Shown here piece after piece: positions 22,996 through 39,716 of a stretch of DNA of 64,000 nucleotides (position 1 is the first letter of the stretch; each line of letters starts with the position of its first letter). The notes below the pieces were generated by a model that did not search any database, was not told where the DNA came from, and was given only the letters and a program-made list of their open reading frames with translations. The translations under genes were made by a program, and so were the position numbers. The DNA is taken from the NCBI RefSeq assembly GCF_002087085.1, contig NZ_MWQY01000003.1, positions 124,001-188,000 on the forward strand. The letters are read 5' to 3'.

Positions 22996-24209
22996 GGGTC
23001 CTCACGCAGGATGGTCTGGGTCCTTTCATAACCCACGGAGACGATGGTTACCGGGGTTTCGGTATACTCTTCAATGAAGCGGATATACTCCCGGGCCTCC
23101 CAGGGAAGGTCCTGGTACTCCTTGATATCTCCCAGATTCTGCTGCCAGCCTGGAAAGTCTTTGGTAACAGGTACCGCCTTCTCCAGGTCCTCGATTCGGC
23201 TTGGAAAATCAGTTACCTTTTTCCCGTCGATTTCGTAGGCGGTGCAGAGGGTAACCGTCTTCAGGGTGTCATAAACATCCAGATGGGTCAGAACCAGGGC
23301 ATCGATGGAGTTTGTACGGCATGCGTATTTCAGAGCAACCAGATCAAGGTAACCGCAGCGCCGGGGACGGCCGGTGGTGACGCCGTATTCCCGCCCGGTT
23401 TCACGGACAAGATCGATAAGGCCGCCATGCTCTTCCGGGGCAAACTCGCTGGGAAAGGGACCATTCCCCACCCGGGTGGAATAGGCCTTGAAAACTCCGA
23501 GGATTTTATCCAGATTTCGGGGTCCGATCCCCCCCCCAAGGGCGGCACCGGCGGCATTGGAGTACCCTGAAGAGACAAAAGGATAAGTCCCGGTATCCAG
23601 ATCCAGGAGGATGCCCTGAGCCCCTTCAAAGAGGATATTGGATTTTTTGTGTTTTGCCATGAAGGCGGCCAGGTTGATAACCATTCCCTCGAGGCGTTTT
23701 CTGAAGGGCTCCAGAAATTCCCGGTCGCCGGGAAGCAGGCTGTTCCATACCCGGGAATCCCACAAATCCCCCGCCCGGACCCCTTCCCTCTGGGCCTTCT
23801 CGGCGTAGGCCACGCCGATACCCCGTCCGGTTGTTCCGATGGGCAGGCGCCGGTCCTTTTCCATCTCCAGATCCATTGTCTTGTATCGTGGAAGAACAAG
23901 ATGGGCCCGATCGGAGATAAGGACCCTGCCTTCCCAGTCGACTCCCTGGGATTCGATCATCTCCAGTTCACTGAAAAGAGCCTCGGGATCTATTACCATG
24001 CCCGATCCCAGGACGGCAATCTTGTCTTTGCTGATAACACCGGAAGGAATCAGATGCAGTTTGTACGTGGTATCCCCGATTACTATGGTGTGTCCCGCGT
24101 TGGCGCCGCCGGAAAAGCGGACCACTACCTGGGCATTCCCTGCCATGTAATCGACGAGTTTTCCCTTTCCTTCGTCACCCCATTGAGCACCAATTACAAC
24201 CAGATTCAT
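22980..24209 (-). CDS. purA: Adenylosuccinate synthetase
   Basis: GAQWGDEGKGK, GGANAGHT, EGAQG, EYGVTTGRPRRCG. Confidence 0.98.
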   Translation of the reverse strand: MNLVVIGAQWGDEGKGKLVDYMAGNAQVVVRFSGGANAGHTIVIGDTTYKLHLIPSGVISKDKIAVLGSGMVIDPEALFSELEMIESQGVDWEGRVLISDRAHLVLPRYKTMDLEMEKDRRLPIGTTGRGIGVAYAEKAQREGVRAGDLWDSRVWNSLLPGDREFLEPFRKRLEGMVINLAAFMAKHKKSNILFEGAQGILLDLDTGTYPFVSSGYSNAAGAALGGGIGPRNLDKILGVFKAYSTRVGNGPFPSEFAPEEHGGLIDLVRETGREYGVTTGRPRRCGYLDLVALKYACRTNSIDALVLTHLDVYDTLKTVTLCTAYEIDGKKVTDFPSRIEDLEKAVPVTKDFPGWQQNLGDIKEYQDLPWEAREYIRFIEEYTETPVTIVSVGYERTQTILREDPWIRS

Positions 24210-24217
24210 TATTTCCC

Positions 24218-25657
24218 CTAATTACGTGAATAGTTGGGGGCTTCCTGCGTAATGGAAACATCATGAGCATGACTCTCCTGAAGCCCGGCGCTGGAGATCT
24301 TAACAAAATTCCTGTATAAACGCAATTGATCGATGGTCCTGCAGCCGCAGTAGCCCATTCCCTTTTTAAGGCCGGTCACCAGCTGGTGAAAAAAGTTTTT
24401 CAGTTCTCCCTTGTAGGGGACCTTTCCCTCGATTCCTTCGGGAACCGGAGCCTCTCCTTCCTTCATCTGATATCTGTCTCCGGAACCCTGCTGAATCGAA
24501 GAGAGACTCCCCATTCCGCGGTACTCCTTGAACATACGCCCGTCGTAGATAATCTCCCGACCCGGGGCCTCCTTCAATCCGGCGAATAGGTTCCCGATCA
24601 TCACGGTACCGGCTCCTGCACAGATCGCTTTGGTTATATCACCGGAAAACTTGATACCCCCGTCGGCCACCACGGGTATACCGGATTTCTCCGCTTCCCG
24701 GGCGCATTCGAGAACAGCGGTAAACTGGGGAACTCCTATGCCGGCGACAATCCGGGTAGTACAGATTGAACCCGGACCGACACCGACTTTGACCGCGTCG
24801 GCCCCTGCATCTATAAGACGCCGGGTTCCTTCCGGGGTAGCCACGTTTCCGCCGATAACTGCCGGACTGAAGTTCGCTTTGATGTCCCGTACCGCGTCGA
24901 TAACACTCTTGCTGTCTCCATGGGCGGTATCAAGGACGACAAAATCCACATTGGCAGCCTGCAGCAGAGGCATCCGTACCCGCCAGTCGTTGGGAGATAC
25001 GGCGGCCCCGACAATCAGTCTGCCCCGGGAGTCTACCGCGGCATTGGGGTAATCCTGATGCTTTTCTATGTCCTTTACCGTTACAAGTCCAGTAAGTTTT
25101 CCTTTTTTATCCACCACCGGGAGTTTTTCGATCTTGTGGGTATCGAACTTCTCCTGGGCGCTTTCGTGGGTGGGATCCCCGATTTCAACCACGGGATCAA
25201 CGGTCATGATCTCCTTTACCCTGCGGCTGTCGTCCCGGCAGAAACGCAGATCCCGGCTGGTGATAATCCCCTTCAGATATCCCTCCTTGTCGACAACAGG
25301 AAGTCCGGATACCCGATTGCTGATGGTTTTTCGCTTAACCTCGGCAATTGAATCATCGGGATCAACGGTAATGGGATTGTCGATAACCCAGTTCAGGTAA
25401 CGCTTGACGCTTCCCACGTGGGCAGCCTGATCCTCAGGGCTCAGATTACGGTGGATAACACCGGCCCCCCCGTTCAGGGCCATGGCTATGGCCATCTCCA
25501 TTTCCGTTACCGTGTCCATTGCGGCGGAGATTATGGGGGCTTTTAAATAAATGTCCCGGCACAGACGGGTTCTAACCGATGCTTCACCGGGCAGAAAATC
25601 CGCGTAGGCAGGGATAAGAAGAACATCGTCATAACTCAGGGATTCACGAAACTCCAT
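24218..25657 (-). CDS. guaB: IMP dehydrogenase
   Basis: [12 protein letters not shown] pair, [21 protein letters not shown]. Confidence 0.98.
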
Positions 25658-27085
25658 CTATTTATCCTCCTTCAAAAAATCCTGTATACCTTCGTAGCGG
25701 TCGGCTATCTCCCTGGCCTTCTTGACCGCTGCACCACGGTACTGCTCCTGGCGGGCAAAAAACAGCTCCGCCTCGGGCAGTCCGACTGCCTTAAGGGACC
25801 GGGAGACCAGTTCGCTGACTGCGCTGTTATCCTTAATGGCGGTGGCCAGGCTGATTCCTTCCTTCTCGCAGCGCAGGGTAAGCTGTTTTATGATCTCGTG
25901 GGCCTCAGACTCCCCCGCCGCGGCGAGCAGAATATAGGCGGCTTCCGCGAGGACCAGATCTCCGGAGGAGTGGATATTCTTCATCATCTGGGCTGCATTG
26001 ACGTGGAGGCTTTTGAGAACCTTGAGGCTCCGGGCAGCGGCAGCGGCGAATCCGGCGAGGTAATCCGCGATAAAACGCATGGAGGCGGAATTGCTCAGAT
26101 CCCGCTGATGTTCAGATATCTGATCCATAAAAAAGGTCATGACCCGGGGAGCAAAGGCCTTCCACAGACTCTTTACGTGTTCAGAGTTCCAGGGATTCCT
26201 TTTCTGGGGCATGGTGGAAGATCCGACCTGCTCGCTCTTGAACAGCTCCCGGACCTCGTTGATTTCGGAGCGCTGGAGGTGCCGGAGATCGTCGGCAAGA
26301 TTCGCGAGAATTCCGAAGGCCACATTAATCTCCAGGAGAAGTCTGAGCAGATACTCGGGCTCCACCATCTGGGTCGCGGTTTCCGAGGGTTTTAAACCCA
26401 GGGATTCGAGGATTTCCGCCTCAAAGCCCTCGGGATCGGAGGTCAGCAGGGCTGTTGAATTATAGGACCCCACCGCCCCGGCGATTTTGCCCCGGAGATC
26501 TCCTGCAAGCCGGTTGATCTGGATAATCGATTTTCCAAGCCGGGAAGCATACTCAGCCATGGCAAAACCGAAGGTAATGGGTACGGCATGCTGCCCGTGG
26601 GTCCGGCCCACCTGAGGTACTTCGGCATTGTCCCGGCAGAGACGGACCAGTTCCTCCTCAACCTTGAGCAAGGTTGGAATTATCACATTCCTGACAGCGT
26701 CCCTCATGCGCATTGACTGGGCAGTATCCAGGATATCCACCGAAGTGGCGCCAAGGTGTACATAGGGAGCGGTTTCCTCAGGGACCTTGCGCTTGAGTAC
26801 ATTTACCAGGGCTCGGATATTATGCTGGGTTTTCTCCTCTTCCTCGTAGACCTCTGAGGGACTCACAGACGCCTCCACAGAATCGAGGGCGGACAGCAGA
26901 TCCGGGCGTCCTTTCATGCTCAGGTTTACATGGCTCTTAAGGAGGGCGATTTCTACCTTGATACAGTACTGAATTGAAGCCTCTTCGCTCAGATAGCCGG
27001 TTAGCTGATCGAACAGGTTCCGATTTGCCAGATAATAACGATGGTCCAGGGGGGACAGACAGTGAAAAATGCTTCTCTCTTCCAT
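25658..27085 (-). CDS. purB: Adenylosuccinate lyase
   Basis: SPLD.RY, HLGATS.D, GRTHGQHA, GSSTMPQKRNP. Confidence 0.95.
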   Translation of the reverse strand: MEERSIFHCLSPLDHRYYLANRNLFDQLTGYLSEEASIQYCIKVEIALLKSHVNLSMKGRPDLLSALDSVEASVSPSEVYEEEEKTQHNIRALVNVLKRKVPEETAPYVHLGATSVDILDTAQSMRMRDAVRNVIIPTLLKVEEELVRLCRDNAEVPQVGRTHGQHAVPITFGFAMAEYASRLGKSIIQINRLAGDLRGKIAGAVGSYNSTALLTSDPEGFEAEILESLGLKPSETATQMVEPEYLLRLLLEINVAFGILANLADDLRHLQRSEINEVRELFKSEQVGSSTMPQKRNPWNSEHVKSLWKAFAPRVMTFFMDQISEHQRDLSNSASMRFIADYLAGFAAAAARSLKVLKSLHVNAAQMMKNIHSSGDLVLAEAAYILLAAAGESEAHEIIKQLTLRCEKEGISLATAIKDNSAVSELVSRSLKAVGLPEAELFFARQEQYRGAAVKKAREIADRYEGIQDFLKEDK

Positions 27086-29722: not shown

Positions 29723-32377
29723 TCAGCCCGCAGCGGCTTCCTGGCGTTCCAGTTCCAGCTGAGCTACTGCAAGCATGGCAATGGGTACGGAATAAACGGA
29801 ACACGATACATAATCCAGTCCGGCCTCCATGCAGAAACTGATATTCTCAGGTACCGCACCGTGTTCGCCGCAGATACCCTTGCTCAGTCCGGGCCGGGTC
29901 ATGAGACCCCGTCGGACTGCAGTCTGAATCAGTTCCTTTACGTTTTTGTCCAGCTGCTGAAAAGGATTCCCGTTCAGTATGTCGAACTGTGTATAGTCGG
30001 GCATAAAGGAGTTGAAATCATCCCTGGAGAGACCAAGGGAAGTCTGGGTGAGATCGTTTGTACCAAAGGAGAAAAACTCGGCATAACGGGCAATCTCTCC
30101 GGCGCTCAGAGCCGCTGCAGGCAGCTCAATCATGGTACCGATCTTGTACGGCAGCTCTTTACCGCCCTTCTCTTTCCGTATGGCCTCTGCCACGGATGTC
30201 AGACCTTCATAGGTATCTCCCTCGATCTTTTTGCCGTACACAATGAGTTTCAGTTCATCGGCATTCATTATGAGGGGGATCATGATCTCCGGCAGCACCT
30301 TGATCTTTTCGTCCCGCAGGGCATAGGCGGCCTCAAAGATAGCTTCGATCTGCATACGGTAAATCTCAGGATATGATACGGCGATACGACAGCCCCGATG
30401 CCCCAGCATGGGATTAAATTCCCGCAGGGAATCGCAGCGGTATCTGATCTCCTTCTGACTCAGGTCCTGATATTTCTTCTGTCCCTTTATGTATTCCAGA
30501 AAGTATCCCATCTCGGCATCATTGTGGGGCAGAAACTCGTGGAGAGGAGCATCCAGAAGACGGATCGTAACCTCCTTACCGTCCATGGCACGGAAGATGC
30601 CGGAAAAATCCTGAACCTGCATCTTTTTAAGCTTCTTAAGGGCCCCTTCCCTGTCGGATGTATTATCCGAAATGATCAGCTCACGGAAAACGTTAATGCG
30701 CTTCTCATCAAAGAACATGTGTTCCGTCCGGCAGAGTCCGATTCCCTGGGCGCCGAAGCGGACAGCCAGTTCGGCGTCATGGGGATTATCGGCATTGACC
30801 CGGACGTGAAAGTCCTTCGTGAAGTTCTTGACTATATCGATATACTCCAGCAGACCCGAACCCTCGGGAGAGGGTTCGATGAGGGATGCCTTTCCAATAA
30901 AGATCTGGGGGTCCCCGTAATGGGGAACATTCATGGTTATATAGTCCCCCTCTTTTACCGTTACCTTATCGATCACGGCCTTTTTTCCGGTAATACGCAT
31001 TTCCGGCTTTACCAGGGAGACCTTTCCGTACTGCCGGGCAACAACCGAAGCGTGGGCCGAATACCCTCCCTCACTGGAAAGTACACCCGTAGCGACTTCG
31101 ATGGCCTTGACATCCTCGGCGAAGGTCGCCGGCATGCACAGAATAAACTTTGTATCCATGCCTTCCAGCTGAGCGGTCTTATAGGCTTCCAGTAGTCCCT
31201 CGGTTGTAAAATAGACCCTGCCCACAGCCGCACCGGGGGCACCGGAGATTCCTCCGCTGATCTCTTCAAAATCCTTGATGGATTTGATATCCACCACAGG
31301 GTGAAGGATCTCATTCAACTGAGCGGGTTTTATACCCTTTATCAGATATTCCTGATCCACAATCCTGCGATTGTGCAGGTCGAGCAGGGTTTTCAGATCC
31401 GCCTGAGTCGATTTTGTCATCACAGGGCGCTGCTCGATAAGCCAAACCTGCTTGTTTTCTATTGTAAAGCGAATGAAGCGGATCTCTTTAAAATGATCCT
31501 CAACAGTTTTGGCGATCTTTTTCAGATCTTTGAGAAAGCCGCTGCCTATCTCGTTAATGTCCTTTCCTTCAATATCGATGGTGTCGAACTCGTTCTGATT
31601 GTACCAGCCCTGCAGCAGATCTTCACCGCTGACGATATCCCGGGTATAGAAACTGCCCGAGGAGCTGTCCTTACCATAATTACCGTAGACCATGGGCTGC
31701 ACCATAATTGCTGCATCCTCATCATCGAGATCGTCCAGTTTCAGCATCAGACTGATTCGCTGAAGTGCCGTCTGCATCTGGGAAAAGGCTGAAGTAAAAA
31801 ACTCCCTGGGCAGCAGTCCCCGGAATTTGGCAAATGCTGCTTTTAGCTCTTTTGCTCCGGCATCTCCTTCCAGAATCTTTTTCAACTCCCCGATTGCCCT
31901 GTTGAGTTCCTGGCGCTGCTTTTCCTTTTTTTCCAGTTCGGCGATTTTCAGTTCGATCTCCAGAAAACCATGCAGCATAAAAAGAACTTCATGGTATCCG
32001 AAGGTCTCCCCCACGAATCCGCAGAATCCCGGAATGGTATCATCGGTTAAACCAAAATTATGCAGCGTCGGATAATGAACAATCGCCAGGTTCGGACTTA
32101 TTACAATCTTCAGAAGAAGAGGATTATCTGGATCATCAAAACGCTTTTTTACCACATCCTCAAATTTCTTGAGATGGATACCCGCCTCTTTTTTAAAATC
32201 GAAATCTTCCAGATGGGCGGCAATTTCGGCATCAATAATAAAACCAGGCAGAATGGGAAGGTCCAGGGATGCAAACTCAAGGGCCTGCTTTCCCCGCAGT
32301 CCGGATTTTTCCATTACCTGCTCATTCTTCGGTCGTATATTTCGACTAAAATAGTGGATATTTTTGTTGGCAGCCAT
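29723..32377 (-). CDS. Pyruvate phosphate dikinase-like protein with a degenerate nucleotide-binding domain
   Basis: PPDK layout; His442 in GGYSAHASVVAR; GLCRTEHMF, TIRLLD.PLHEF, GTMIE, FSFGTNDLTQ and GICGEHG intact; N-terminal ATP motifs altered. Confidence 0.92.
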   Translation of the reverse strand: MAANKNIHYFSRNIRPKNEQVMEKSGLRGKQALEFASLDLPILPGFIIDAEIAAHLEDFDFKKEAGIHLKKFEDVVKKRFDDPDNPLLLKIVISPNLAIVHYPTLHNFGLTDDTIPGFCGFVGETFGYHEVLFMLHGFLEIELKIAELEKKEKQRQELNRAIGELKKILEGDAGAKELKAAFAKFRGLLPREFFTSAFSQMQTALQRISLMLKLDDLDDEDAAIMVQPMVYGNYGKDSSSGSFYTRDIVSGEDLLQGWYNQNEFDTIDIEGKDINEIGSGFLKDLKKIAKTVEDHFKEIRFIRFTIENKQVWLIEQRPVMTKSTQADLKTLLDLHNRRIVDQEYLIKGIKPAQLNEILHPVVDIKSIKDFEEISGGISGAPGAAVGRVYFTTEGLLEAYKTAQLEGMDTKFILCMPATFAEDVKAIEVATGVLSSEGGYSAHASVVARQYGKVSLVKPEMRITGKKAVIDKVTVKEGDYITMNVPHYGDPQIFIGKASLIEPSPEGSGLLEYIDIVKNFTKDFHVRVNADNPHDAELAVRFGAQGIGLCRTEHMFFDEKRINVFRELIISDNTSDREGALKKLKKMQVQDFSGIFRAMDGKEVTIRLLDAPLHEFLPHNDAEMGYFLEYIKGQKKYQDLSQKEIRYRCDSLREFNPMLGHRGCRIAVSYPEIYRMQIEAIFEAAYALRDEKIKVLPEIMIPLIMNADELKLIVYGKKIEGDTYEGLTSVAEAIRKEKGGKELPYKIGTMIELPAAALSAGEIARYAEFFSFGTNDLTQTSLGLSRDDFNSFMPDYTQFDILNGNPFQQLDKNVKELIQTAVRRGLMTRPGLSKGICGEHGAVPENISFCMEAGLDYVSCSVYSVPIAMLAVAQLELERQEAAAG

Positions 32378-32401
32378 AGGTTCTCCCCTTTCAGCTCATT
32401 A

Positions 32402-33409
32402 TTAGAACAGATTCAGCACGGTATTTACCGGGAACCGCAGAAAATCTTCGAACCGGGGACTTGCTCCCTGGCGAAGGTAACGCTGCAGTTTCGCCACATC
32501 CTTGATATCTTCTCCAGCAACAGCGAAAACGATGGTGCTACCGTGTTTGACCTTTCCCCATTTGAAAAGGGCGGCTATATCGTGAATTCTCTCGCCTTCA
32601 TAGAATATATATACCTCGAGACCAGGATGTTTCGCCTGATAACTCTGAATAATCCGTTTCCAGGCCTCAACATTACCATTGTGAAAGAGCTCATTACTGA
32701 CGGGGACAGAGTAGAAAGGCGTCATGCGCTTTTTACCGCCTCCGCTTTCTCTGGCGGGGGTTGGTGCCGTCGCGGCAGTGTCTTTCTGACCTGTCGGTTT
32801 TCTGGCTGTACTGGTTTTCTTTTTTCGTACAGCGGGCTTTTTCGGTTCCTTGATTTCTTTAGGCGGAGAATACTTGAAGGATCCCTTTGTCAGCAGTGCC
32901 GGGGGCTTACCCGGAGAACCATTCAGGTATTTAATGAATGTCTCGACGGCTTTGTCCGCCGTCTGCTGATCGACTCCCCTGTCCATCCCGCCGGCATATA
33001 TTGTTACAATCTCGTTCTTTCTTAGGGTTCCAACGGAGTCCCAGTGGGAACGGTTTTTCGGGTTTACAATCAGATAGCCAAGCTCGGGATGGATATAGGT
33101 CATAACCAGATCCACGGCGTTCCATCCGGCGACAGCTTCATGGATCTCGTCAAAAGCTTCCACAGTATCCTTCAGATTGCATGAATCACAGGCATAGGCG
33201 TATTTGTCCACCAGCAGAGCATAAACAATCGGGCCCAGCTGATTCTGATTCAGAGTATTTTCACCGAGCATCTGATTCAACTGATCGGCAAGATTGTTCT
33301 TCTGTTGAATTTCCGGAATTATATTGGCGACGGCCTGAAAATGTCCCAGGGAAGAATTGAACCCCTCCCGGGTAAAGAAATGTTCGTAAGCGTAGGGTAA
33401 TGTTCCCAT
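32402..33409 (-). CDS. Protein with a novel N-terminal domain, basic linker and C-terminal HPr-like domain
   Basis: Residues ~229-315 align by eye with HPr (V.V.N..FH, ALFK, G..I.....GED). Confidence 0.75.
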   Translation of the reverse strand: MGTLPYAYEHFFTREGFNSSLGHFQAVANIIPEIQQKNNLADQLNQMLGENTLNQNQLGPIVYALLVDKYAYACDSCNLKDTVEAFDEIHEAVAGWNAVDLVMTYIHPELGYLIVNPKNRSHWDSVGTLRKNEIVTIYAGGMDRGVDQQTADKAVETFIKYLNGSPGKPPALLTKGSFKYSPPKEIKEPKKPAVRKKKTSTARKPTGQKDTAATAPTPARESGGGKKRMTPFYSVPVSNELFHNGNVEAWKRIIQSYQAKHPGLEVYIFYEGERIHDIAALFKWGKVKHGSTIVFAVAGEDIKDVAKLQRYLRQGASPRFEDFLRFPVNTVLNLF

Positions 33410-33431
33410 CTTTTGTCCTCTCGCGCAGTTG

Positions 33432-33461
33432 AAAAAAGAGACCCCCTCACGAGGAGGGGGT
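33432..33461 (-). terminator. Terminator/attenuator hairpin after cfpA
   Basis: ACCCCCTC-CTCGT-GAGGGGGT followed by CTCTTTTTT on the minus strand. Confidence 0.7.
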
Positions 33462-33473
33462 ACAACAAACCGC

Positions 33474-35516
33474 TTAGATAGTGGTTAGTCCGGAATCTTT
33501 GGATTTACTTTTTCGAGGGCGTCCTCGCCTGCTCTTTTTCTTCGCGGGAGCGTCCACAACACCTTTGGACTTGGCCTTGCTCTTGGGCTTGGCGGAAGAC
33601 TCCGGAGTCGAGGCTGGCTCAGTATCCGTATTCAGCATATCGAGATACGCCATACCGCCCCCGGCTTCTGCAGCTTCTTCTTCAGCTGAAGAGGAGAAAT
33701 GCATGTCAATATCTTCCCGTACCGTGGATCTTCTGCGGGAGAACGCGGCAAACGCGGCATCCTGGAATCCCTTGGACACACCATGGAGGAATTCATTCAG
33801 AACGTTGGCCATGCCATCCAGGGTAGCCTTCTTCCGCTTGATGGAGGTGATGTCAACATCAAGCAGCAGACCGGGCTGAATATGGTAAGGGTTGATCATG
33901 TAGTCAAACTTGTTGAATTCCCGTTCCAGGAACTGCAGACGGTCTTCCATGACCCGACGCTGCACGGGATACCGGAATCCGTACATATCCTGAAGCTTCT
34001 GCTTCATCAGGATCAGCCGGTTCTTGATCTTGTCCTTCTCGAAGATATAGGTCCGGTTCATCTTCTCAACCTGGGTCTCCGCAGGCTGTACGAAGGAGAT
34101 CTCGTCCCAGCTCTTTTCGATATCTTCGTAGACGGGATCGCCGGTCTTCGCCTTGATTTTCTTGCGGATCTTGTTCTTGTAAATCGCAGCAAGATCATTG
34201 AAATCGGAGATACGTTTCCAGAATTTGGTGTCTTCATAGACCATATCCAGAACGTCCCAGATGTGCTGAACCTCGACCTCCAGGGATTTGATCATAACAT
34301 CGTAGGCTTTACGCTCTTCGATGAGCTGAGCATTGTCGTAATACTTCATCTTGATCTGATACCGTTCGTCGGGCAGGTTGTTGGCGTCGGTATCTTCGTA
34401 CTCCCGGATGATCAGCTCCCGGGTATTCTTGAGGTTCTCGATATACTGATACCCCATCTTGGAGGTATCGAGGATAGAGGTAATCGAGTTGATGGCAGTA
34501 TTGTAACCGCGGTTCCGTATGTTCTCGATGTCGATGATCTCTTTCAGGTTTTCCCGGATATTCAGCTGGTCAAAGGATTCGGGATCGATCTCTGCGCGAA
34601 GACCTTCGATCCTTTCCATCAGACTCTTCGCGAAATAGCGGTACCGGTTCGACTTGGGGTTTTCCTTGTCGTCGGATGTGTGATTCTCCACCCGCTTCAT
34701 TTTTTCGAAGATGATCTCGGAATCATTCAGTTCATCCAGACCTTCATCGATACGCTGATCCTTGATCTGCTCGATTTCCTTGTCGATATTGTCCATAATA
34801 TGCTTGGAAATCAGATCCTTGATCAGGTATTCAACAGTTACCTGGTAGTGAAAAATCGGGCTGATGAGTTCAGAATCGAGGATATTGACGGACAGTTTGA
34901 CGTCCGAAACGGTCTTCGGTTTGTAAATGTTGTCCTTGAAGGCACATTTGACAACGGAATAAGCGTTTTCACCCCGAATGAACGCACCCACATCGGTCTT
35001 CTGACGCAGCAGTGAGTTGGTCAGGTTTTCCAGGTCGTTGACACCCCGCTGGACGTGGCCCTGCAGGTGTCCGTACATATTGACGATGGATTTCTCGATT
35101 TCTCCGGTATTGAACCTGTCGGTACCTCCCACTTCGTCAAGGAGGGCTGCAATCTCCTTCGGCGTGTAGCGGGTAAGAACCTTCATCTCCTCCCGGTCGA
35201 TGAAATTCCTGACCTTTTTAACCATTTCGTCTTCGGTGGTGACGATATAACGGTTAAACATATTCTGGTAGTTCTGGTTGAAGTAGTTGTAAACCTTTTC
35301 CTTCAGCCCGCCCATTACATCGAGCCGTTCCAGAACCTCTTTCGGCAGTTTCGAGGTTACGTGGTTGATAACCTTATCGACTTCTTCCTCGAGAAGTCGG
35401 TCTACTTCGGCCTGTTGATCCCGGCTTTCCTGGGCGAGAGAGTTTCGTGAACCCACCGCGCTTCTCTTTTCCGGGTGAAACACCATCGGACTTTTAGGTA
35501 GATCTATGCTTCCCAT
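33474..35516 (-). CDS. cfpA: Cytoplasmic filament protein A
   Basis: N-terminus [23 protein letters not shown] matches treponemal CfpA as I recall it; 680 aa, helical/coiled-coil; AAGGAG RBS. Confidence 0.93.
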
Positions 35517-35546
35517 GGGACTCTCCTTACATCATTGTTCTCTATA

Positions 35547-35654: not shown

Positions 35655-37115
35655 GTGTGGTGTATCATGAAAATCACAGAAATATATGATCCTCTTATTT
35701 CTAATATCTCCAAAAAAACCATCCTTATTATAACGCTTGCAGTTCTTTTGCTTAATGCGGCCACGGCGGATCAACGGGACGAGAATATTGACGTCTTTCT
35801 TGTGCTTGATAAATCCCTGTCCATGGTGGAGGAGATAGATTCGGTTAAAGAATATGTTGTTGACGAACTCATCGAGAAAACCCTGATTCCCGGGGATTTT
35901 TTCCTCGTTATCCAGTTCTACGGAACAGCGGAACTCCTGCTGGCAGAAGAGGTAGGCCGGGATAATCGGGAATCCCTTACAGAGGAAATGCGGAGCATAC
36001 TGGCGGACGGTCGGTTTACCGATATCGGCAACGCCCTGGATACCCTTCAGAACACGCTTAAGCGATACGATGAACGGGACCGGCGGCGATATATGCTGCT
36101 GATCACCGACGGTATACAGGAAGCTCCACCGGAGAGTCAGTATTACTCTCCGGACGGAAGCTTCAATCACCAGTTTCTGGAAAACAGCAAGATAATACAG
36201 AAACAGGGATGGAAGATACATATTCTGGGAATCGGTTCGGGAAGCGCAGCCAGGGAACTTGCCGAAACCCTGAGTGGAACCTACACGGAGGTCGAAACCG
36301 GTACCGCCGAAGGGGAAGCGCCATCGGAAACCGAGGTTAAACACCTGACAGAGCAGCTGACGGAAAGTACCGAAGATCTGCTGTCGATAGTAAGCATAAG
36401 CGGCAGGCCGCGAATCGGAGCCTTCAGCGAAGAGGGAAAAAGCAGCCTCGTACTATCCCTGAAAAGCAGCGGCTACAAAAATGAGCAGACAATCCGAATC
36501 AGTACCCTGTACCTGGGCATAGACGGAAGAGAATATTCCGGGGCCAGGAATGTCCGCCTGACGGTGCAGCCGGAGAGTGAAGAGGAGTATGAAATCCCCC
36601 TTTCCGTGGATGCCGCTGCAGGACTTTCATCCACGGAAGTGGAAATACGAGCCGATTTCGCCGGCGGAACTGTCTTTACCCCGGCAATTTTCACGGCTGA
36701 TGTTGCGGCACCGGGATTCATGACCCGTTACTGGCCCTACCTTACTGCCGCCCTTCTTGTCCTGATTCTTATTGCCCTGCTGGTCCTGTTGATCAGCAAG
36801 GGAGTTTTTTCAGGCGGCCGCAAACTGGAACTCGAAATAGACTGGGATGATTCGGATAAGAAGAAATTCATCAGCCTGCCGGCAAAGGAACAGCTCTTTA
36901 TCTCCGAGGGAATCAGCGGCATCGATGTGGGACTCCACAAAACGGGAGAAGTACTGGCAACCCTTCACAGCGAGGGGGATGAGCTGATCATAAGCACCGA
37001 TAAGGATGACCTTTTTCTCGGCGGGGCTCTGAGGGGCAATGTCCTGGGAAAGCCGATGAAGATAAAGGACCGCTACGGTAAATACAAGGGTCTGACCTTT
37101 GTAAGAAGAAAGTAG
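35655..37115 (+). CDS. Membrane-anchored von Willebrand A domain protein (start may be ATG 35667)
   Basis: Signal peptide, MIDAS LVLDKSLSM, FTDIG.AL, LITDG, C-terminal TM and cytoplasmic tail. Confidence 0.88.
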   Translation: MWCIMKITEIYDPLISNISKKTILIITLAVLLLNAATADQRDENIDVFLVLDKSLSMVEEIDSVKEYVVDELIEKTLIPGDFFLVIQFYGTAELLLAEEVGRDNRESLTEEMRSILADGRFTDIGNALDTLQNTLKRYDERDRRRYMLLITDGIQEAPPESQYYSPDGSFNHQFLENSKIIQKQGWKIHILGIGSGSAARELAETLSGTYTEVETGTAEGEAPSETEVKHLTEQLTESTEDLLSIVSISGRPRIGAFSEEGKSSLVLSLKSSGYKNEQTIRISTLYLGIDGREYSGARNVRLTVQPESEEEYEIPLSVDAAAGLSSTEVEIRADFAGGTVFTPAIFTADVAAPGFMTRYWPYLTAALLVLILIALLVLLISKGVFSGGRKLELEIDWDDSDKKKFISLPAKEQLFISEGISGIDVGLHKTGEVLATLHSEGDELIISTDKDDLFLGGALRGNVLGKPMKIKDRYGKYKGLTFVRRK

Positions 37116-37130
37116 GTACAAACGGGCACT

Positions 37131-38114
37131 ATGGCTTTTTCGCAGTTCAAGCGGCTCATCGATACCTACACGAATTTTTTCCTTACCTGCCACGAGACTC
37201 CCGATGGAGATGCAATCGGCGCTGAAGTTGCCCTGTATCATGCCCTCCTTTCCCTGGGAAAGAAGGTCAGGATCATCAATGCAGATCCGGCACCGGATAA
37301 ATACCGCTACCTCTGTAAACCGGATACGGTGGAACTCATCCATTCAATGAAAGCCGCGCCGGATCCGGGGGGTGTCCTCATCATTCTGGATACCAACGAT
37401 ATTCATAATATCGGAGATGTTGCAGAAAAACTGCTTCCCCATGTCGTCGAGTACTTCATTATAGATCACCATGAAAGCGGAGAAGACATCAGCAGCGGTC
37501 GCGTAATTGAAGCCTCTGCCTCGTCCACCTGCGAAATACTCTTCAAGATTTTTTCGGAACTCGGGATCATCGTATCCAGAGAGATGGCAATAGCCCTGTA
37601 CACGGGTATAATCTATGACACGGGTTGTTTTGTGTACCCCAAGACCACAGCCTTTACCTTCAGTGCAGCGGAAAAGCTGGTACAAGCCGGGGCCGGCCCT
37701 TACAATCTGTACACCGCCATATACGAGAGTAATTCCGTATCCTCCCTTAAACTGCATGCCAGAGTCCTCTCCAGTCTGGAGCTTTATTACAATGAGCAGG
37801 TAGCTGTTCTGACCATGCGGAAGGAGTGCATAGACGAAGCCGGAGCCCTCTACGAAGAAGCCGACACCCTGATCAATATCCCCCTGCACTCTGAAAGAAT
37901 CCGGGTAAGCCTCTTTTTCAAAGAGAACACGGAGGGGCTGCTCCGCTGCTCTCTGCGGTCGAAAGGGAATATCAATGTCTCGGATATCGCCCAGAAATAC
38001 GGCGGAGGAGGCCATCGTACCGCCGCCGGCTTCAAATCTCCATTTCCCCTGGATCAGATTCAGAAAATGGTGCTCCAGGATCTTGCCGGGTATTTTCCGG
38101 GGACAATTGTCTGA
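37131..38114 (+). CDS. DHH/DHHA1 phosphoesterase (NrnA-like)
   Basis: H..PDGDA.G, IDHH, YTGI..DTG.F, SLRS, GGGGH..AAG. Confidence 0.95.
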   Translation: MAFSQFKRLIDTYTNFFLTCHETPDGDAIGAEVALYHALLSLGKKVRIINADPAPDKYRYLCKPDTVELIHSMKAAPDPGGVLIILDTNDIHNIGDVAEKLLPHVVEYFIIDHHESGEDISSGRVIEASASSTCEILFKIFSELGIIVSREMAIALYTGIIYDTGCFVYPKTTAFTFSAAEKLVQAGAGPYNLYTAIYESNSVSSLKLHARVLSSLELYYNEQVAVLTMRKECIDEAGALYEEADTLINIPLHSERIRVSLFFKENTEGLLRCSLRSKGNINVSDIAQKYGGGGHRTAAGFKSPFPLDQIQKMVLQDLAGYFPGTIV

Positions 38115-38144
38115 GCCCCGGTTTTACGGTACAATCCTGCCTGT

Positions 38145-39716
38145 ATGAAGAAACGACTCGCCCTCTTCGGCCTCTGTATTTTTATATGTATTGCTGCAAT
38201 TTCCTGCCGCCGGGATCCCGTGCCCGCGGAGGTATCCGCCGAGCCTGTAATTGTGACCCCCTCGGGGGGAGGTTCTGCCGGAGAAAATCTGTCCATGGAG
38301 TTCGAAGGGTCTCTCCAGGAAGACGAAGTTCAGCCGAAGATCGACCTGCCTTCGAACAGCGAGATCATCCAGATTGTCAATGAAAACCTCGATATAGACC
38401 AGATAGAGGAGCAGATAATTGCTTACCGGGAAAAGGATCTGTCCGGTGCCCCGATCCGGCTGCTTGTAGCTGACTACGATGCGATTCAGGACAGCTATTT
38501 TCCCGCCTGGGAATCCGGAGTCGATATTTCAAATGCCATGAGTTTTTCCATGAGCTTCATCGATCTTGTGGGGGACCATGTTCCCGAGATAGTCTGCACC
38601 GGTACGAATCCGGAAAACGGGAACCAGCTGCTCAGGGTTTTCAGAAAGGAGATAAGTCCCAGCGGTTTCGGGCTTCATTTCTCCTCCATATCCTCCCTTT
38701 CGGTTCGCGGTTCCATCGAGATAGTCCAGATCGAACGTGAACAGGCCTATTACAACGGGCAGAAAAACGGAAAGAGTTTTCCCATAGTAAGCTATGAGCA
38801 GGATCAAAACTCGGACAATCTGAGCGATTTGATTAAGACGAGCTACTACTGGCGCTACCAGGAGAACTCCTACGCCCAGGTAATGAGGGAACAGGTTCAG
38901 GGTGAAAGGATCGAGGACGAACGGCTGAACCGCCTGTTCCGTTCCAACGAAAACGATTTCGAGGCATTTCTTCAGGGCCCCTGGCTGAAAACAAGCCAGG
39001 ACGCTTCCGGCAGAGTCAGTCATTCGGTTCTGTACTTTCAGCCGGAGAGCAGGTTTTTTGCAAACTATTCAGGGGATGTTCAGGAAGAGTATATCTGGCA
39101 GGCCTCCAACCGGACCAACTACAATCAGCTCTATATAATCGGGGCCAATGACCTGATCCGCTATATCCGCAAACAACTGTCGATCACCGTAAGGGACATC
39201 CATAACATTCATATCTGGACCAGCGATATCAATGACACCTGGAGCGGAGAGTATCAGAGGATCAGCGGCGATGTGCAGTCCATATTCTTCCCCGAGAGCA
39301 GGACAAGTCAGGAACTTCCCTTTCACCTTTCCGGGGTATTTACCAACGAGTCAGGGGTCTCCGTAGTATTCGATGAACCCCGTTTTCAGTACCGGGATGA
39401 CGGGGGTGAACGAAACGGAGGCTATGCGCTGTATTACTCCGGGGCGGGCTATAACCGCAACCTGATTCTGGAACTGGTTTTTCTGAGCGATGCCGGTCTT
39501 ATTGAGGAGAGACGGGTATATAAGCTTGATTACCTGGAAGAACAGCGGGAACAGGAGATAATCCGAACCCTGTATCTTATTCCAGGCAGGGTCGGGGTTC
39601 GGGGTTTTGTCCCCGATGACGAGGGCTTTATCCAGTATGAACAGATCGAGACCATCGATACCGCCCAGGATGAGGCGGAGGGAGAGTCTGACACCAACGC
39701 CGTCAATGAAGAATAA
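38145..39716 (+). CDS. Lipoprotein, probably a pallilysin-related adhesin family member
   Basis: Spirochaetal lipobox (AISC); ENLD.D..EEQI and DLVGDH motifs; position after the vWA gene recalls the treponemal locus. Confidence 0.6.
   Translation: MKKRLALFGLCIFICIAAISCRRDPVPAEVSAEPVIVTPSGGGSAGENLSMEFEGSLQEDEVQPKIDLPSNSEIIQIVNENLDIDQIEEQIIAYREKDLSGAPIRLLVADYDAIQDSYFPAWESGVDISNAMSFSMSFIDLVGDHVPEIVCTGTNPENGNQLLRVFRKEISPSGFGLHFSSISSLSVRGSIEIVQIEREQAYYNGQKNGKSFPIVSYEQDQNSDNLSDLIKTSYYWRYQENSYAQVMREQVQGERIEDERLNRLFRSNENDFEAFLQGPWLKTSQDASGRVSHSVLYFQPESRFFANYSGDVQEEYIWQASNRTNYNQLYIIGANDLIRYIRKQLSITVRDIHNIHIWTSDINDTWSGEYQRISGDVQSIFFPESRTSQELPFHLSGVFTNESGVSVVFDEPRFQYRDDGGERNGGYALYYSGAGYNRNLILELVFLSDAGLIEERRVYKLDYLEEQREQEIIRTLYLIPGRVGVRGFVPDDEGFIQYEQIETIDTAQDEAEGESDTNAVNEE

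What the first reader, a model, noticed from the sequence alone, without database searches (positions are those of the whole stretch)
32402..32725. Cryptic HPr-fold domain with His at position 15 from an internal Met
Seen: MTPFYSVPVSNELFH places His243 at position 15 counting from internal Met229. EVYIFYEGER..ALFK...KHGSTIVFAVAGED parallels E. coli HPr EITVTSNGKS..SLFK...TQGTVVTISAEGED. Arg17/Pro18 are replaced (HNGN) and the Ser46 position appears to be Ala. The domain hangs on a Lys/Pro/Thr-rich linker from an unrecognised ~180-aa domain. Inference: a non-canonical phosphocarrier insulated from the sugar PTS and HPr kinase.
Basis: partly seen in the sequence, partly recalled or inferred. Interest (0 to 1): 0.78.

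Follow-up and report, generated by a model that had tools for sequence, protein, structure and literature searches.

The report
Tandem HPr-fold protein beside CfpA
A conserved spirochaete protein encoded between the cytoplasmic-filament gene cfpA and an altered pyruvate-phosphate-dikinase look-alike is predicted to be built from two copies of the HPr phosphocarrier fold, the second keeping the key histidine, which hints at an undescribed phosphate relay or docking link between central metabolism and the cell's internal filament.

Summary
The ORF (32402-33409, minus strand, 335 aa) is real and belongs to a mainly spirochaete family, Pfam TP_0747_N. By sequence alone, likeness to HPr is not above chance: PF00381 gives no hit and profile-profile gives P 0.036.

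For the C-terminal domain (pLDDT 93), HPr/Crh chains top both Foldseek and VIA-align (Z up to 7.8). His243 sits directly before helix 1 and is kept in 77 of 79 relatives.

- Residues 72-165 are a second, better HPr-fold match (Z 8.7) with no conserved His.
- Met229 is not conserved (33 of 79).
- The gene lies in a three-gene module: cfpA, this gene, then a PPDK paralogue. The paralogue keeps its catalytic His and PEP domain but has lost ATP-site residues.

Of 61 genomes holding the gene among 151 scanned, 55 have the paralogue directly downstream and 47 have cfpA directly upstream. The module recurs in a non-spirochaete MAG.

My best reading (about 0.4) is a PEP-driven, ptsH-ptsI-like relay onto His243. 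A non-catalytic adaptor is nearly as likely. Phosphotransfer is untested.

The parts
32402..33409 (-). Whole gene, called X here (TP_0747 family), 335 aa plus stop. A GAGGA ribosome-binding site lies 6 nt before the ATG at 33409.
   Evidence: ORF list and sequence. The best hit is 99% identical to a hypothetical protein named by its source as Marispirochaeta aestuarii. In all, 3210 relatives reach E<=0.001, and all 120 listed carry PF27497.
33203..33409 (-). Residues 1-69: three N-terminal helices (14-35, 40-49, 55-69).
   Evidence: AF2 model m31e90f486596, pLDDT 89.4. Median identity to the window over 20 loci is 33%.
32915..33196 (-). Residues 72-165: HPr-like domain 1 (strand-helix-strand-strand-helix-strand-helix). 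It has no conserved His at the His15-equivalent place, about F86 (F in 25 of 79). It has conserved YxHP and NPKN motifs.
   Evidence: VIA-align against 48,161 chains: E. coli HPr 9s8b_C gives Z 8.7, rmsd 1.9 A, 80 of 85 residues aligned. Further rows are 7ff5_A 8.3, 1pch_A 7.6, 1kkl_H 7.0 and NPr 5t17 6.4. The next row on this domain scores Z 4.7.
32726..32914 (-). Residues 166-228: low-complexity linker. It is Lys/Pro/Thr-rich here and acidic (poly-Glu) in some relatives.
   Evidence: pLDDT is 49-75. Length and charge vary in alignment A1. Median identity is 20%.
32450..32725 (-). It carries the motif N-E-L-F-H243-N-G-N-V-E-A-W.
   Evidence: AF2 C-domain model: pLDDT 93.3, pTM 0.88. Foldseek top hits are Crh/HPr, E 0.0097-0.05, probability 0.97-1.0. 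VIA wide: the top 4 are HPr, Z 7.5-6.7. pdb_via: the top 27 rows are all HPr/Crh, Z 7.8-6.4. Median identity to the window is 64%.
32681..32683 (-). Codon of His243, the residue directly before helix 1 of domain 2.
   Evidence: DSSP starts the helix at 244 in both models. H in 77 of 79; the exceptions are P0159 (S) and P0197 (N).
32405..32449 (-). Residues 321-335: conserved C-terminal tail (E-D-F-L-R-F-P-V-N-T-V-L-N-L-F).
   Evidence: L334 is kept in 74 of 79 and F335 in 78 of 79.
33474..35516 (-). cfpA, the cytoplasmic filament protein gene, directly upstream on the same strand.
   Evidence: NCBIfam NF040882 scores 1229.6 bits against a cut-off of 500.
33431..33461 (-). Terminator-like hairpin (8 pairs, 6 of them G-C) plus a T-run, between cfpA and X.
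   Evidence: Consensus scan and sequence. RNA-library contigs of two studies end at 33412 and 33403, while one contig runs through the hairpin (33280-35526).
29723..32377 (-). PPDK-like paralogue, 884 aa, starting 24 nt after the stop of X. Catalytic His442 and the PEP/pyruvate domain are kept. The ATP-grasp motifs are replaced.
   Evidence: - TIGR01828 scores 633 bits, under its cut-off of 843.
- The genome's canonical PPDK on C24 scores 1340.8 bits.
- Pfam PPDK_N scores 26.7 bits here against 185 bits in the canonical copy.
- The motif table covers 21 paralogues.
- In the tree, paralogues and canonical copies split with 100/100 support.

Best explanation
The ORF encodes the middle protein of a conserved three-gene module: cfpA, then X, then a PPDK-like gene.

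X consists of a short helical head, two domains of the HPr fold joined by a flexible linker of about 60 residues, and a conserved tail.

The likeliest mechanism has these steps:
1. The PPDK paralogue next door takes a phosphoryl group from PEP onto its swivelling His442. The PEP/pyruvate domain and this His are intact. This step is inferred from kept motifs.
2. It no longer hands the phosphoryl group to AMP/PPi, because residues that bind ATP in true PPDKs are replaced. This step is inferred.
3. It passes the phosphoryl group to His243 at the N-cap of helix 1 of X's second HPr-like domain. This mirrors Enzyme I phosphorylating His15 of HPr. The gene order X then PPDK-like mirrors ptsH then ptsI. 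This step is inferred and untested.
4. The His-less first HPr-like domain and the helical head serve as the anchor, to the enzyme or to the CfpA filament. The state of X would then report the PEP/pyruvate ratio to the filament system. This step is speculative.

Shown here: the family, the module, the predicted folds, the place and conservation of His243, and the motif pattern of the paralogue.
For: Fold:
- Two independent aligners rank HPr first for both domains.

His243:
- It sits directly before helix 1 in both models.
- It is conserved in 77 of 79 relatives, within a nearly invariant motif.

Linkage across 151 Spirochaetota genomes:
- X occurs in 61 and cfpA in 60. None of the 60 cfpA genomes lacks X.
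- The PPDK paralogue lies directly downstream of X in 55 of 61. cfpA lies directly upstream in 47 of 61.
- The X-paralogue pair stays together in the seven genomes where both genes are assembled but cfpA lies elsewhere: six genomes of family f17, and G010.
- Intergenic gaps between X and the paralogue are 3-296 nt in 20 loci that I picked for diversity.

The paralogue:
- The catalytic His motif, RTEHMFF, NPMLGH/NRG, GTNDLTQ and CGE are kept in 21 of 21.
- GGKGANL, RSG..SMPGMMDT and DxEFT..LQxR are replaced in 21 of 21.
- Val92 and Arg303 stand where maize PPDK has R97 and E326. With an offset of 2 that I inferred from chain lengths, these would be Arg95 and Glu324 of Flaveria PPDK. [quoted passage not shown]
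- At least 55 of the 61 X-bearing genomes also hold a canonical-type PPDK (58 show two or more matches, and matches are not copy numbers). The paralogue is therefore not simply the cell's PPDK.
- Paralogues and canonical copies split with 100/100 support.

Outside the phylum:
- A MAG-derived contig holds cfpA homologue, X homologue and PPDK-like in the same order, with a 4-nt overlap. Its protein cluster is named Candidatus Lambdaproteobacteria. X keeps the His and the enzyme keeps its His.
- Free-standing 118-aa homologues of the C-domain in four non-spirochaete MAG loci (SAR324 and others) have no PPDK-like or cfpA neighbour, and they lack the His.

Expression:
- RNA-library contigs of two studies bridge the X/PPDK-like junction.
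- In T. denticola, TDE0842-44 (cfpA, hypothetical, PPDK) are repressed together (PMC3914990, Table 5 rows seen).
Against: - There is no significant sequence similarity to HPr.
- Arg17 is absent (H-N-G-N). I recall Arg17 as important for HPr phosphotransfer.
- The structural Z-scores of the C-domain (up to 7.8) are only about 1.5 above unrelated alpha/beta sandwiches (6.3). They lie in the range the tool calls common.
- His243 = His15 rests on helix boundaries, not on a residue-level superposition, because no coordinates were available.
- PPDK-like proteins lack the helical HPr-binding subdomain of Enzyme I (recalled).
- The remodelled N-domain is itself conserved and might still bind a nucleotide in another way.
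- One 1.14-Mb genome (G102) has only the paralogue at E<=1e-50. There it may have to act as the PEP-to-pyruvate enzyme.
- Two of 79 relatives lack the His.
- No fused X-PPDK form was found (weak evidence).
- Nothing here measures phosphorylation.
Confidence: 0.4

Rival explanations
1. Non-catalytic adaptor. The two HPr-fold domains are protein-binding modules. HPr and Crh also act as binding regulators of enzymes and transcription factors. Here the domains would tether or regulate the PPDK-like enzyme on the CfpA filament. His243 would be an interface or structural residue and would never be phosphorylated.
For: - The same linkage data apply as for the best explanation.
- The C-domain evolves as slowly as the CfpA core (64% against 67% median identity). 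X's N-part is at 33-34%. That pattern fits a surface locked to a polymer.
- Domain 1 has the fold without any His.
- Arg17 is absent.
- PDB rows in the fold searches include HPr bound as a regulator to glycogen phosphorylase, Rsd, FruR and CcpA.
Against: - The His is kept in 77 of 79, exactly at the helix N-cap.
- It is lost in the free-standing homologues that have no PPDK-like neighbour.
- The enzyme keeps precisely the parts needed to make a phospho-His from PEP while losing the ATP site. A mere scaffold does not explain this.
Confidence: 0.35
2. The fold likeness is a common alpha/beta arrangement and carries no functional meaning. X is a CfpA assembly, bundling or anchoring factor. Its link to the PPDK-like gene is only operonic.
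For: - Z under 8 for the C-domain, with PGM domain 4 and the aIF2-alpha C-domain at Z 6.0-6.3.
- No sequence signal.
- Presence of X and cfpA coincides almost perfectly (61 and 60 of 151).
Against: - Domain 1 matches HPr at Z 8.7 and rmsd 1.9 A over 80 of 85 residues, while the next unrelated row scores 4.7.
- HPr tops every search for both domains.
- The X-PPDK-like pairing is tighter than X-cfpA (55 against 47 of 61).
- The pairing survives where cfpA has moved away.
Confidence: 0.13
3. X is an extra HPr served by the ordinary PTS. The cell's Enzyme I would phosphorylate His243, and HPr kinase might act on a Ser/Thr near helix 2.
For: - The genome has Enzyme I-like and HPr genes.
- All 61 of 61 spirochaete genomes searched have a canonical HPr.
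- Position 280 is Ser/Thr in 52 of 79 relatives.
Against: - The HPr surface motifs (G-x-H-A-R-P) are absent.
- The occurrence of X follows cfpA and the paralogue, not the PTS, which is found in all 61 genomes searched, with or without X.
- This protein has Ala at position 280.
Confidence: 0.07
4. The C-terminal domain is made as a separate protein from an internal start at Met229.
For: An ATG is present, with a GGAGG 13 nt upstream. A 130-aa database entry (P0175) starts exactly there, but it may be a fragment.
Against: Met229 is M in only 33 of 79 relatives; others have L, K or I. The GGAGG encodes the Gly run. The two-domain architecture is kept throughout the family. Contigs cannot show starts.
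Confidence: 0.05

Closest known systems
HPr (PtsH, Pfam PF00381), phosphocarrier of the bacterial PTS
   Same: - The predicted fold and order of elements (strand-helix-strand-strand-helix-strand-helix) match in both domains.
- Nearly the whole HPr chain (77-83 of 83-89 residues) superposes at 1.9-3.0 A.
- Domain 2 has a conserved His directly before helix 1, where HPr has His15 (the place of His15 is recalled).
   Different: - No detectable sequence relationship.
- No Arg17/Pro18.
- Two copies in one chain, plus a helical head and a conserved tail.
- Its occurrence follows cfpA, not the PTS.
Crh, the His15-less HPr paralogue of Bacillus that acts only as a binding regulator
   Same: Crh (1zvv_J) is the top Foldseek hit of the C-domain. 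Domain 1 of X, like Crh, has the fold without the His.
   Different: Crh is a clear sequence relative of HPr and is regulated at Ser46 (recalled). No such site could be fixed in X.
The ptsH-ptsI operon, and Enzyme I
   Same: The gene order is small HPr-fold protein, then PEP-utilising enzyme with a mobile phospho-His domain and a PEP-binding barrel. The PPDK-like protein matches PF00391 and PF02896, the same two families as in Enzyme I. The genes are separated by 24 nt here and overlap by 4 nt in locus L064.
   Different: The enzyme is a PPDK derivative with a remodelled ATP-grasp domain. It does not have the HPr-binding helical subdomain of Enzyme I (recalled). Transfer to X is not shown.
Pyruvate, phosphate dikinase (TIGR01828; C. 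symbiosum 1DIK/1KBL, maize 1VBG, Flaveria 5JVJ)
   Same: The neighbour aligns over its full length, at 37% identity to the genome's own PPDK. It keeps the catalytic His, RTEHMFF, NPMLGHRGCR, FGTNDLTQ and CGEHG.
   Different: It scores 633 bits against a cut-off of 843. The N-terminal 260 residues score only 31 bits against T. brucei PPDK, while the rest scores 448 bits. The ATP-site motifs are replaced in 21 of 21. It forms a separate clade with 100/100 support.
Pfam PF27497, TP_0747_N
   Same: All 120 listed relatives carry it. An Atlas cluster is named 'TP_0747 N-terminal domain-containing protein'.
   Different: This is only a family label for the N-terminal part. My Pfam copy does not hold it, so I could not read its description. 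I found no function in print.

Membership tests
HPr family (PF00381) | Significant match to the family profile | tested here: not met
   Pfam finds no family at E<=1 for the whole protein, and only PDZ_6 (E 0.12) for residues 229-335. The PF00381 genome scan hits 4 other places in this genome and none here. In 61 of 61 spirochaete genomes it hits elsewhere. For G015 and G042, which I checked by eye, the HPr hit lies far from the X coordinates. hhalign gives P 0.036 (C-domain) and 0.019 (N-domain).
HPr family (PF00381) | HPr fold: four-stranded sheet with three helices on one face, in the order strand-helix-strand-strand-helix-strand-helix | tested here: met
   This holds for predicted models only. 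Domain 1: Z 8.7, rmsd 1.9 A, 80 of 85 residues. Domain 2: Z 7.5-7.8, rmsd 2.2-2.5 A, 80 of 84-85 residues. Foldseek top hits are HPr/Crh. I could not inspect strand order directly.
HPr family (PF00381) | Active-site His at the N-cap of helix 1 (His15) | tested here: met
   Domain 2: His243 directly precedes the helix that starts at 244 in both models, and it is H in 77 of 79. The equivalence rests on helix boundaries, not on a residue-level superposition. Domain 1 does not meet this feature: the place is about F86, F in 25 of 79.
HPr family (PF00381) | Arg17 next to the His (G-x-H-A-R-P motif) | tested here: not met
   The sequence reads H243-N-G-N. N244 is kept in 71 of 79, G245 in 77 of 79 and N246 in 79 of 79. 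The 31 spirochaete HPr sequences read H-A-R-P, with one H-V-R-P.
HPr family (PF00381) | Regulatory Ser46 at the N-cap of helix 2 | tested here: inconclusive
   The register is uncertain by about 3 residues. Candidates are D277 (D/N in 71 of 79), position 279 (N in 61 of 79, Ala here) and position 280 (S/T in 52 of 79, Ala here).
HPr family (PF00381) | Phosphorylated by a PEP-dependent enzyme on the His | not testable with these tools
   This needs biochemistry.
Pyruvate, phosphate dikinase (TIGR01828), for the neighbouring gene | Score over the curated cut-off | tested here: not met
   It scores 633 bits against a cut-off of 843.45. The genome's other copy scores 1340.8 bits.
Pyruvate, phosphate dikinase (TIGR01828), for the neighbouring gene | Catalytic His on the mobile domain, and the PEP/pyruvate-domain motifs | tested here: met
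   GG(Y/F)xxHAxV(V/A/S/C)R, RTEHMFF, NPMLG(H/N)RG, GTNDLTQ and CGE are kept in 21 of 21. PF00391 scores 33.7 bits and PF02896 scores 236 bits.
Pyruvate, phosphate dikinase (TIGR01828), for the neighbouring gene | ATP-binding residues of the ATP-grasp domain (Flaveria Arg95 and Glu324) | tested here: not met
   Window Val92 and Arg303 align with maize R97 and E326. V92 is invariant in 20 of 20. The Glu place is R or K in 19 of 21. The role of the two residues comes from PMC5507339 (passages). The offset of 2 between maize and Flaveria numbering is my inference from chain lengths.
CfpA-linked module (cfpA, TP_0747-like, PPDK-like) | Gene lies between cfpA and the PPDK paralogue on one strand | tested here: met
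   In the window: 33474-35516, 32402-33409 and 29723-32377, all on the minus strand. The same order is seen in 17 of the 20 fetched loci that included upstream DNA with cfpA, and in L064.

The most novel reading that the evidence does not exclude
Spirochaetes, and at least one lineage outside the phylum, carry a PTS-like phosphorelay that is not part of the PTS. A PPDK-derived enzyme that has given up ATP acts as an 'Enzyme I'. It uses PEP to phosphorylate His243 of a tandem HPr-fold protein. That protein sits on, or controls, the CfpA cytoplasmic filament. The PEP/pyruvate ratio would then be read out by the cytoskeleton that governs cell division and chromosome handling. A corollary: the gene annotated as PPDK in small-genome treponemes that have only this paralogue may not be a normal PPDK.
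Probability: 0.3. Interest if true: 0.85.

Novelty: new variant of a known kind. Interest (0 to 1): 0.65.

Why it matters
CfpA filaments are a hallmark of treponemes and related spirochaetes. As I recall, their loss disturbs cell division and chromosome structure in T. denticola. No partner or regulator has been named in the papers I could search.

This gene is present in every cfpA-bearing genome searched (60 of 60). It is tied even more tightly to an altered PEP-utilising enzyme. That offers a concrete, testable link between central carbon metabolism and a bacterial cytoskeleton.

It would also extend the HPr fold and the ptsH-ptsI logic to a system with no sequence relationship to the PTS. 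Finally, it questions the 'pyruvate phosphate dikinase' annotation used in metabolic reconstructions of organisms that hold only this paralogue.

Tried and rejected
Searches and predictions that gave nothing usable:
- Complex prediction of the PPDK-like protein (884 aa, alignment A5) with the C-domain (112 aa, A3). After many queue refusals the job ran. It returned 'no answer', score 0.00 against a mark of 0.32, and no controls were folded. This is no evidence either way.
- Search for fused forms, meaning proteins of 588-2000 aa that hold the C-domain. There were 34 candidates and none reached E<=0.001. This is weak evidence.
- phmmer of X against PDB sequences gave one hit, E 0.67, a cytochrome c. 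The family profile against PDB gave 17 hits at E<=10, none of them HPr.
- hhalign of domain 1 against domain 2 gave P 0.11 over 10 columns, so there is no sign of an internal duplication by sequence.
- ESM Atlas for the C-domain gave scores of 0.81-0.89, which are leads only. For residues 1-170 it gave no usable hit. No Atlas structure was available.
- Paper searches: 'TP0747' gave 0 papers and 'PF27497' gave 0. 'HPr' plus 'CfpA' gave 40 papers, and the 10 listed were unrelated, mostly the CFPAC cell line. 'CfpA' plus spirochete plus filament since 2015 gave 10 papers (8 listed); by title and abstract start none concerns this gene. A search for PPDK ATP-site residues by number gave nothing useful.
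- Earlier-notes look-ups by place and by sequence found nothing.
- Residue-level superposition was not possible, because model coordinates are not exposed to scripts.

Ideas considered and dropped:
- The Lys-rich linker as a DNA-binding element. I rejected it as a family feature because the linker is acidic in several relatives.
- RNA-library contigs cannot show starts or levels. Depth differences between cfpA and X contigs are therefore not used.
Full report
**The object**

The finding lies inside one ORF, window 32402..33409 on the minus strand, 335 aa. M229-T-P-F-Y-S-V-P-V-S-N-E-L-F-H243 is followed by N-G-N. EVYIFYEGER, ALFK and KHGSTIVFAVAGED are all there. A Lys/Pro/Thr-rich stretch (residues 166-228) precedes them.

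The best database hit is 99% identical and is named by its source as a hypothetical protein of Marispirochaeta aestuarii. In all, 3210 relatives reach E<=0.001 among 6580 candidates, and all 120 listed carry the precomputed Pfam family PF27497. The Atlas output names that family TP_0747_N. At 50% clustering the family has only 194 representatives.

**Is the HPr likeness in the sequence more than chance?**

By sequence it is not.
- Pfam gives no family for X at E<=1. For residues 229-335 alone it gives only PDZ_6 at E 0.12.
- PF00381 run over the whole genome finds four other places and not this one.
- Over 61 spirochaete genomes PF00381 finds a canonical HPr in 61 of 61, always elsewhere as far as I compared coordinates.
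- I built a profile of 31 spirochaete HPr sequences from those loci and compared it with a C-domain profile. The local match covers 48 columns at P 0.036, probability 1.4%. In global mode there is nothing.
- A family profile against all PDB sequences gives 17 hits at E<=10, none of them HPr.

**Structure prediction**

I made a diverse alignment of 79 full-length relatives (A2). With it AlphaFold2 gives a confident model: pLDDT 89.4, pTM 0.69. The C-terminal 112 residues alone give pLDDT 93.3 and pTM 0.88.

In the full model the C-domain runs strand 233-236, helix 244-260, strands 265-270 and 273-275, helix 280-283, strand 292-299, helix 305-315, then a short helix at 318-323. This is the order of elements in HPr.

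Search results for the C-domain:
- Foldseek against the PDB puts HPr or Crh first, both for the full model (E 0.035-0.1, probability 0.97-0.99) and for the C-domain model (1zvv_J: E 0.0097, probability 1.00, TM 0.51/0.64). Ranks 1-4 and 6-15 are HPr, with MoaE at rank 5. No Foldseek row reaches E<=0.001.
- VIA-align against 48,161 representative chains, which does not depend on Foldseek, ranks four HPr chains first: 7ff5_A Z 7.5, 9s8b_C 7.1, 1pch_A 6.8 and 1kkl_H 6.7, at rmsd 2.5-2.8 A over 80 residues. Next come phosphoglucosamine mutase domain 4 (6.3) and the aIF2-alpha C-domain (6.0).
- The second-look mode gives HPr/Crh in all of the top 27 rows (Z 7.8-6.4).

The tool warns that Z under 8 can be a common arrangement. 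For the C-domain the margin over unrelated folds is only about 1.5.

**The His**

In both models the helix starts at residue 244, so His243 is the residue directly before it. I recall that His15 caps helix 1 of HPr in the same way.

Model residue 7 (protein 230) aligns with HPr residue 1.

Conservation across the 79 relatives:
- His243 is H in 77. The two exceptions are P0159 (S) and P0197 (N).
- The surrounding N-E-L-F-H-N-G-N-V-E-A-W is nearly invariant.
- Met229 is M in only 33 of 79.

I could not superpose coordinates. The equivalence His243 = His15 therefore rests on helix boundaries. The Ser46 equivalent stays open: D277, position 279 or position 280.

**A second HPr fold**

VIA-align on the full model shows that residues 72-165 match HPr better than the C-domain does:
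- E. coli HPr 9s8b_C: Z 8.7, rmsd 1.9 A, 80 of 85 residues.
- 7ff5_A 8.3, 1pch_A 7.6, 1kkl_H 7.0, NPr 6.4.
- The next row on that domain scores only Z 4.7.

This domain has no conserved His at the equivalent place, about F86 (F in 25 of 79). It has no sequence signal to HPr (P 0.019 over 30 columns) or to the C-domain (P 0.11).

X is therefore a helical head, HPr-like 1, a variable linker, HPr-like 2 and a conserved tail.

**Context in the window**

- Directly upstream on the same strand lies cfpA (NF040882, 1229.6 bits against a cut-off of 500).
- Starting 24 nt downstream lies a PPDK homologue that scores 633 bits against TIGR01828's cut-off of 843.
- A strong terminator-like hairpin with a T-run stands between cfpA and X. 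There is none between X and the PPDK-like gene.

**The neighbour is a divergent paralogue**

- The same genome has a canonical PPDK elsewhere (C24, 1340.8 bits). It is 37% identical to the window's copy.
- Pfam's PPDK_N scores 185 bits in the canonical copy and 26.7 bits in the window's.
- Against T. brucei PPDK the first 260 residues score 31 bits and the rest 448 bits.
- In 21 of 21 paralogues (the window plus 20 loci) the motifs GGKGANL, RSG..SMPGMMDT and DxEFT..LQxR are replaced by other, themselves conserved, motifs. The catalytic His motif, RTEHMFF, NPMLG(H/N)RG, GTNDLTQ and CGE are kept.
- Window Val92 and Arg303 align with maize R97 and E326. With an offset of 2 these would be Arg95 and Glu324 of Flaveria PPDK. 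PMC5507339 describes those two as directly involved in ATP binding (passages read). The offset is my inference.
- In a careful ML tree of 14 canonical and 22 linked copies, the two groups split with 100/100 support. The one non-spirochaete row is on a very long branch, and its place is unsure.

**Linkage across genomes**

I scanned 151 Spirochaetota genomes.
- X is found in 61 and cfpA in 60. None of the 60 cfpA genomes lacks X, and one X genome (G048) shows no cfpA.
- From the coordinates, cfpA lies directly upstream of X in 47 of 61.
- The 14 others are: six genomes of family f17 and four of f41 (on other contigs), G010 (7 kb away on the other strand), G036 and G070 (contig ends), and G048.
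- The PPDK paralogue lies directly downstream in 55 of 61. The exceptions are the four f41 genomes, plus G140 and G105, for which no paralogue row stood among the 60 rows I entered.
- In the seven genomes where both genes are assembled but cfpA lies elsewhere (six f17 genomes and G010), X and the paralogue still sit together.
- In 20 loci that I chose for family diversity, the gap from X to the paralogue is 3-296 nt.
- At least 55 of the 61 X-bearing genomes also hold a canonical-type PPDK (36-40% identity). In the table, 58 show two or more matches, but matches are not copy numbers: G148's two matches are pieces of one paralogue.
- Genomes without X hold only that canonical type or none. The 1.14-Mb genome G102 and the 73%-complete G017 show only the paralogue at E<=1e-50.

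**Outside the phylum**

Two results bear on the meaning of the His.
1. A distant X homologue (P0266) belongs to a cluster whose member is named Candidatus Lambdaproteobacteria. It lies in a metagenome contig in the order cfpA homologue (626 aa, 2e-158), X homologue (262 aa), PPDK-like (884 aa, 2.8e-89). The last two overlap by 4 nt. There X keeps the His (L-L-H-H-G-N-V-E-A-L). The enzyme keeps its His and most PEP-domain motifs, while the ATP-grasp motifs are unrecognisable.
2. Free-standing 118-aa homologues of the C-domain occur in four MAG loci whose records or protein clusters are labelled Deltaproteobacteria, Pseudomonadota, SAR324 or simply 'bacterium'. In the three loci long enough to show both neighbours, they lie between an AICARFT/IMPCHase-like gene and a UbiE-type methyltransferase gene. 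No cfpA or PPDK-like gene is nearby, and they lack the His.

The His therefore goes with the PPDK-like neighbour. The sample is small.

**Expression**

- Near-identical contigs from metatranscriptome libraries of three studies cover all three genes.
- Contigs from two of these studies bridge the X/PPDK-like junction (31608-32515 and 32216-33097).
- One contig runs from cfpA through the hairpin into X (33280-35526). Two others end at 33412 and 33403.
- Such libraries can hold DNA, and contigs show neither starts nor levels.
- In T. denticola the three genes TDE0842-44 (cfpA, conserved hypothetical, PPDK putative) are repressed together in co-culture (PMC3914990, text passage and Table 5 rows seen).

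**How it most likely works**

The enzyme keeps exactly what is needed to make a phospho-His from PEP. It has lost what a PPDK needs in order to use ATP. Its constant upstream partner carries an HPr-fold domain with a conserved His in the HPr position, on a flexible arm of about 60 residues.

My preferred reading, at about 0.4, is a ptsH-ptsI-like relay: PEP, then His442 of the enzyme, then His243 of X. Domain 1 and the helical head would act as the anchor to the enzyme or to CfpA.

Nearly as likely, at 0.35, X is a non-phosphorylated adaptor or regulator, as HPr and Crh are for several enzymes. The slow evolution of the C-domain fits a locked interface. Its median identity to the window is 64%, against 67% for the CfpA core, 33-34% for X's N-part, and 39%, 56% and 58% for the three parts of the enzyme.

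Points against phosphotransfer:
- Arg17 is absent.
- The enzyme lacks Enzyme I's HPr-binding subdomain (recalled).
- The structural Z-scores of the C-domain are modest.
- Nothing here measures phosphorylation.

**Earlier notes of this scan**

Two AI notes on another genome (e1-5048467 and e1-5048468) describe the same tandem HPr-fold partner of CfpA and the same ATP-site-less PPDK look-alike. I saw them only after reaching the same reading. They are not independent evidence.

**Novelty and verdict**

The family is catalogued, but I found no function or fold assignment in print. Subscription journals, Pfam's own text for PF27497 and supplementary files were not seen.

I rate this a new variant of a known kind: the HPr fold and the ptsH-ptsI layout, re-used with a PPDK-derived enzyme and a cytoskeletal filament. 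Its functional claim remains open. The idea of an internal Met start is unlikely.

Noticed in passing
window 29723-32377 (-): The gene that would be annotated as pyruvate phosphate dikinase is a divergent paralogue. Its catalytic His442 and PEP domain are kept, but its ATP-grasp motifs are replaced in all 21 copies examined. A canonical PPDK lies elsewhere in the genome (C24). One 1.14-Mb genome of the same class (G102) has only the paralogue at E<=1e-50.
   Followed up: yes
window 33431-33461 (-): A terminator-like hairpin (8 pairs, 6 of them G-C) with a T-run lies between cfpA and the next gene. Contigs from RNA libraries of two studies end about 20-40 nt past it, and one contig reads through. 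It may attenuate transcription after the abundant filament gene.
   Followed up: partly
window 35655-39713 (+): Divergently from cfpA lie a VWA-domain protein (35655-37112), a DHH/DHHA1 protein (37131-38111) and a protein with a Pallilysin beta-barrel domain (38145-39713, PF18663, 42 bits). As I recall, a VWA protein and pallilysin lie near cfpA in T. pallidum too. This neighbourhood may therefore be old and not specific to pathogens.
   Followed up: no
L064 5010-10353; L063: A complete module of cfpA homologue, X homologue and PPDK-like gene lies on metagenome contigs. Their X protein clusters with a MAG protein named Candidatus Lambdaproteobacteria. This places CfpA-type filament genes outside Spirochaetota, or else reflects a transfer or a binning error.
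   Followed up: partly
L055-L058 (e.g. L056 5986-6357): Free-standing 118-aa homologues of the C-terminal domain, without the His, occur in four non-spirochaete MAG loci. In the three loci long enough to show both sides (L056-L058), each lies between an AICARFT/IMPCHase-like gene and a UbiE-type methyltransferase gene, next to an SLT/LysM protein.
   Followed up: partly
L059-L062 (family f41 genomes, e.g. L059 4986-6308): In four small genomes (1.7-1.8 Mb) X is not followed by the PPDK paralogue, which lies on another contig. Instead a conserved gene of about 440 aa follows, with no Pfam family, starting 11-14 nt after X.
   Followed up: no
G005: C97, C69, C102: One genome shows three full-length cfpA matches (974, 854 and 843 bits). 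Only the first is next to X.
   Followed up: no
window 33474-33701 (-), CfpA residues 606-680: The C-terminal tail of CfpA is a low-complexity Lys/Ser/Pro/Ala-rich stretch. It is poorly conserved (23% median identity) and lies outside the NF040882 model, which covers residues 5-609.
   Followed up: no
window 32060-33025 (+): A 321-aa ORF lies antisense to X and to the start of the PPDK-like gene. It has no support and is most likely a chance open frame opposite real genes.
   Followed up: no
window 22983-27085 (-): A purine-nucleotide gene cluster lies a few kb downstream: adenylosuccinate synthetase, IMP dehydrogenase and adenylosuccinate lyase. The free-standing C-domain homologues also sit beside a purine gene. 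This is probably coincidence.
   Followed up: no
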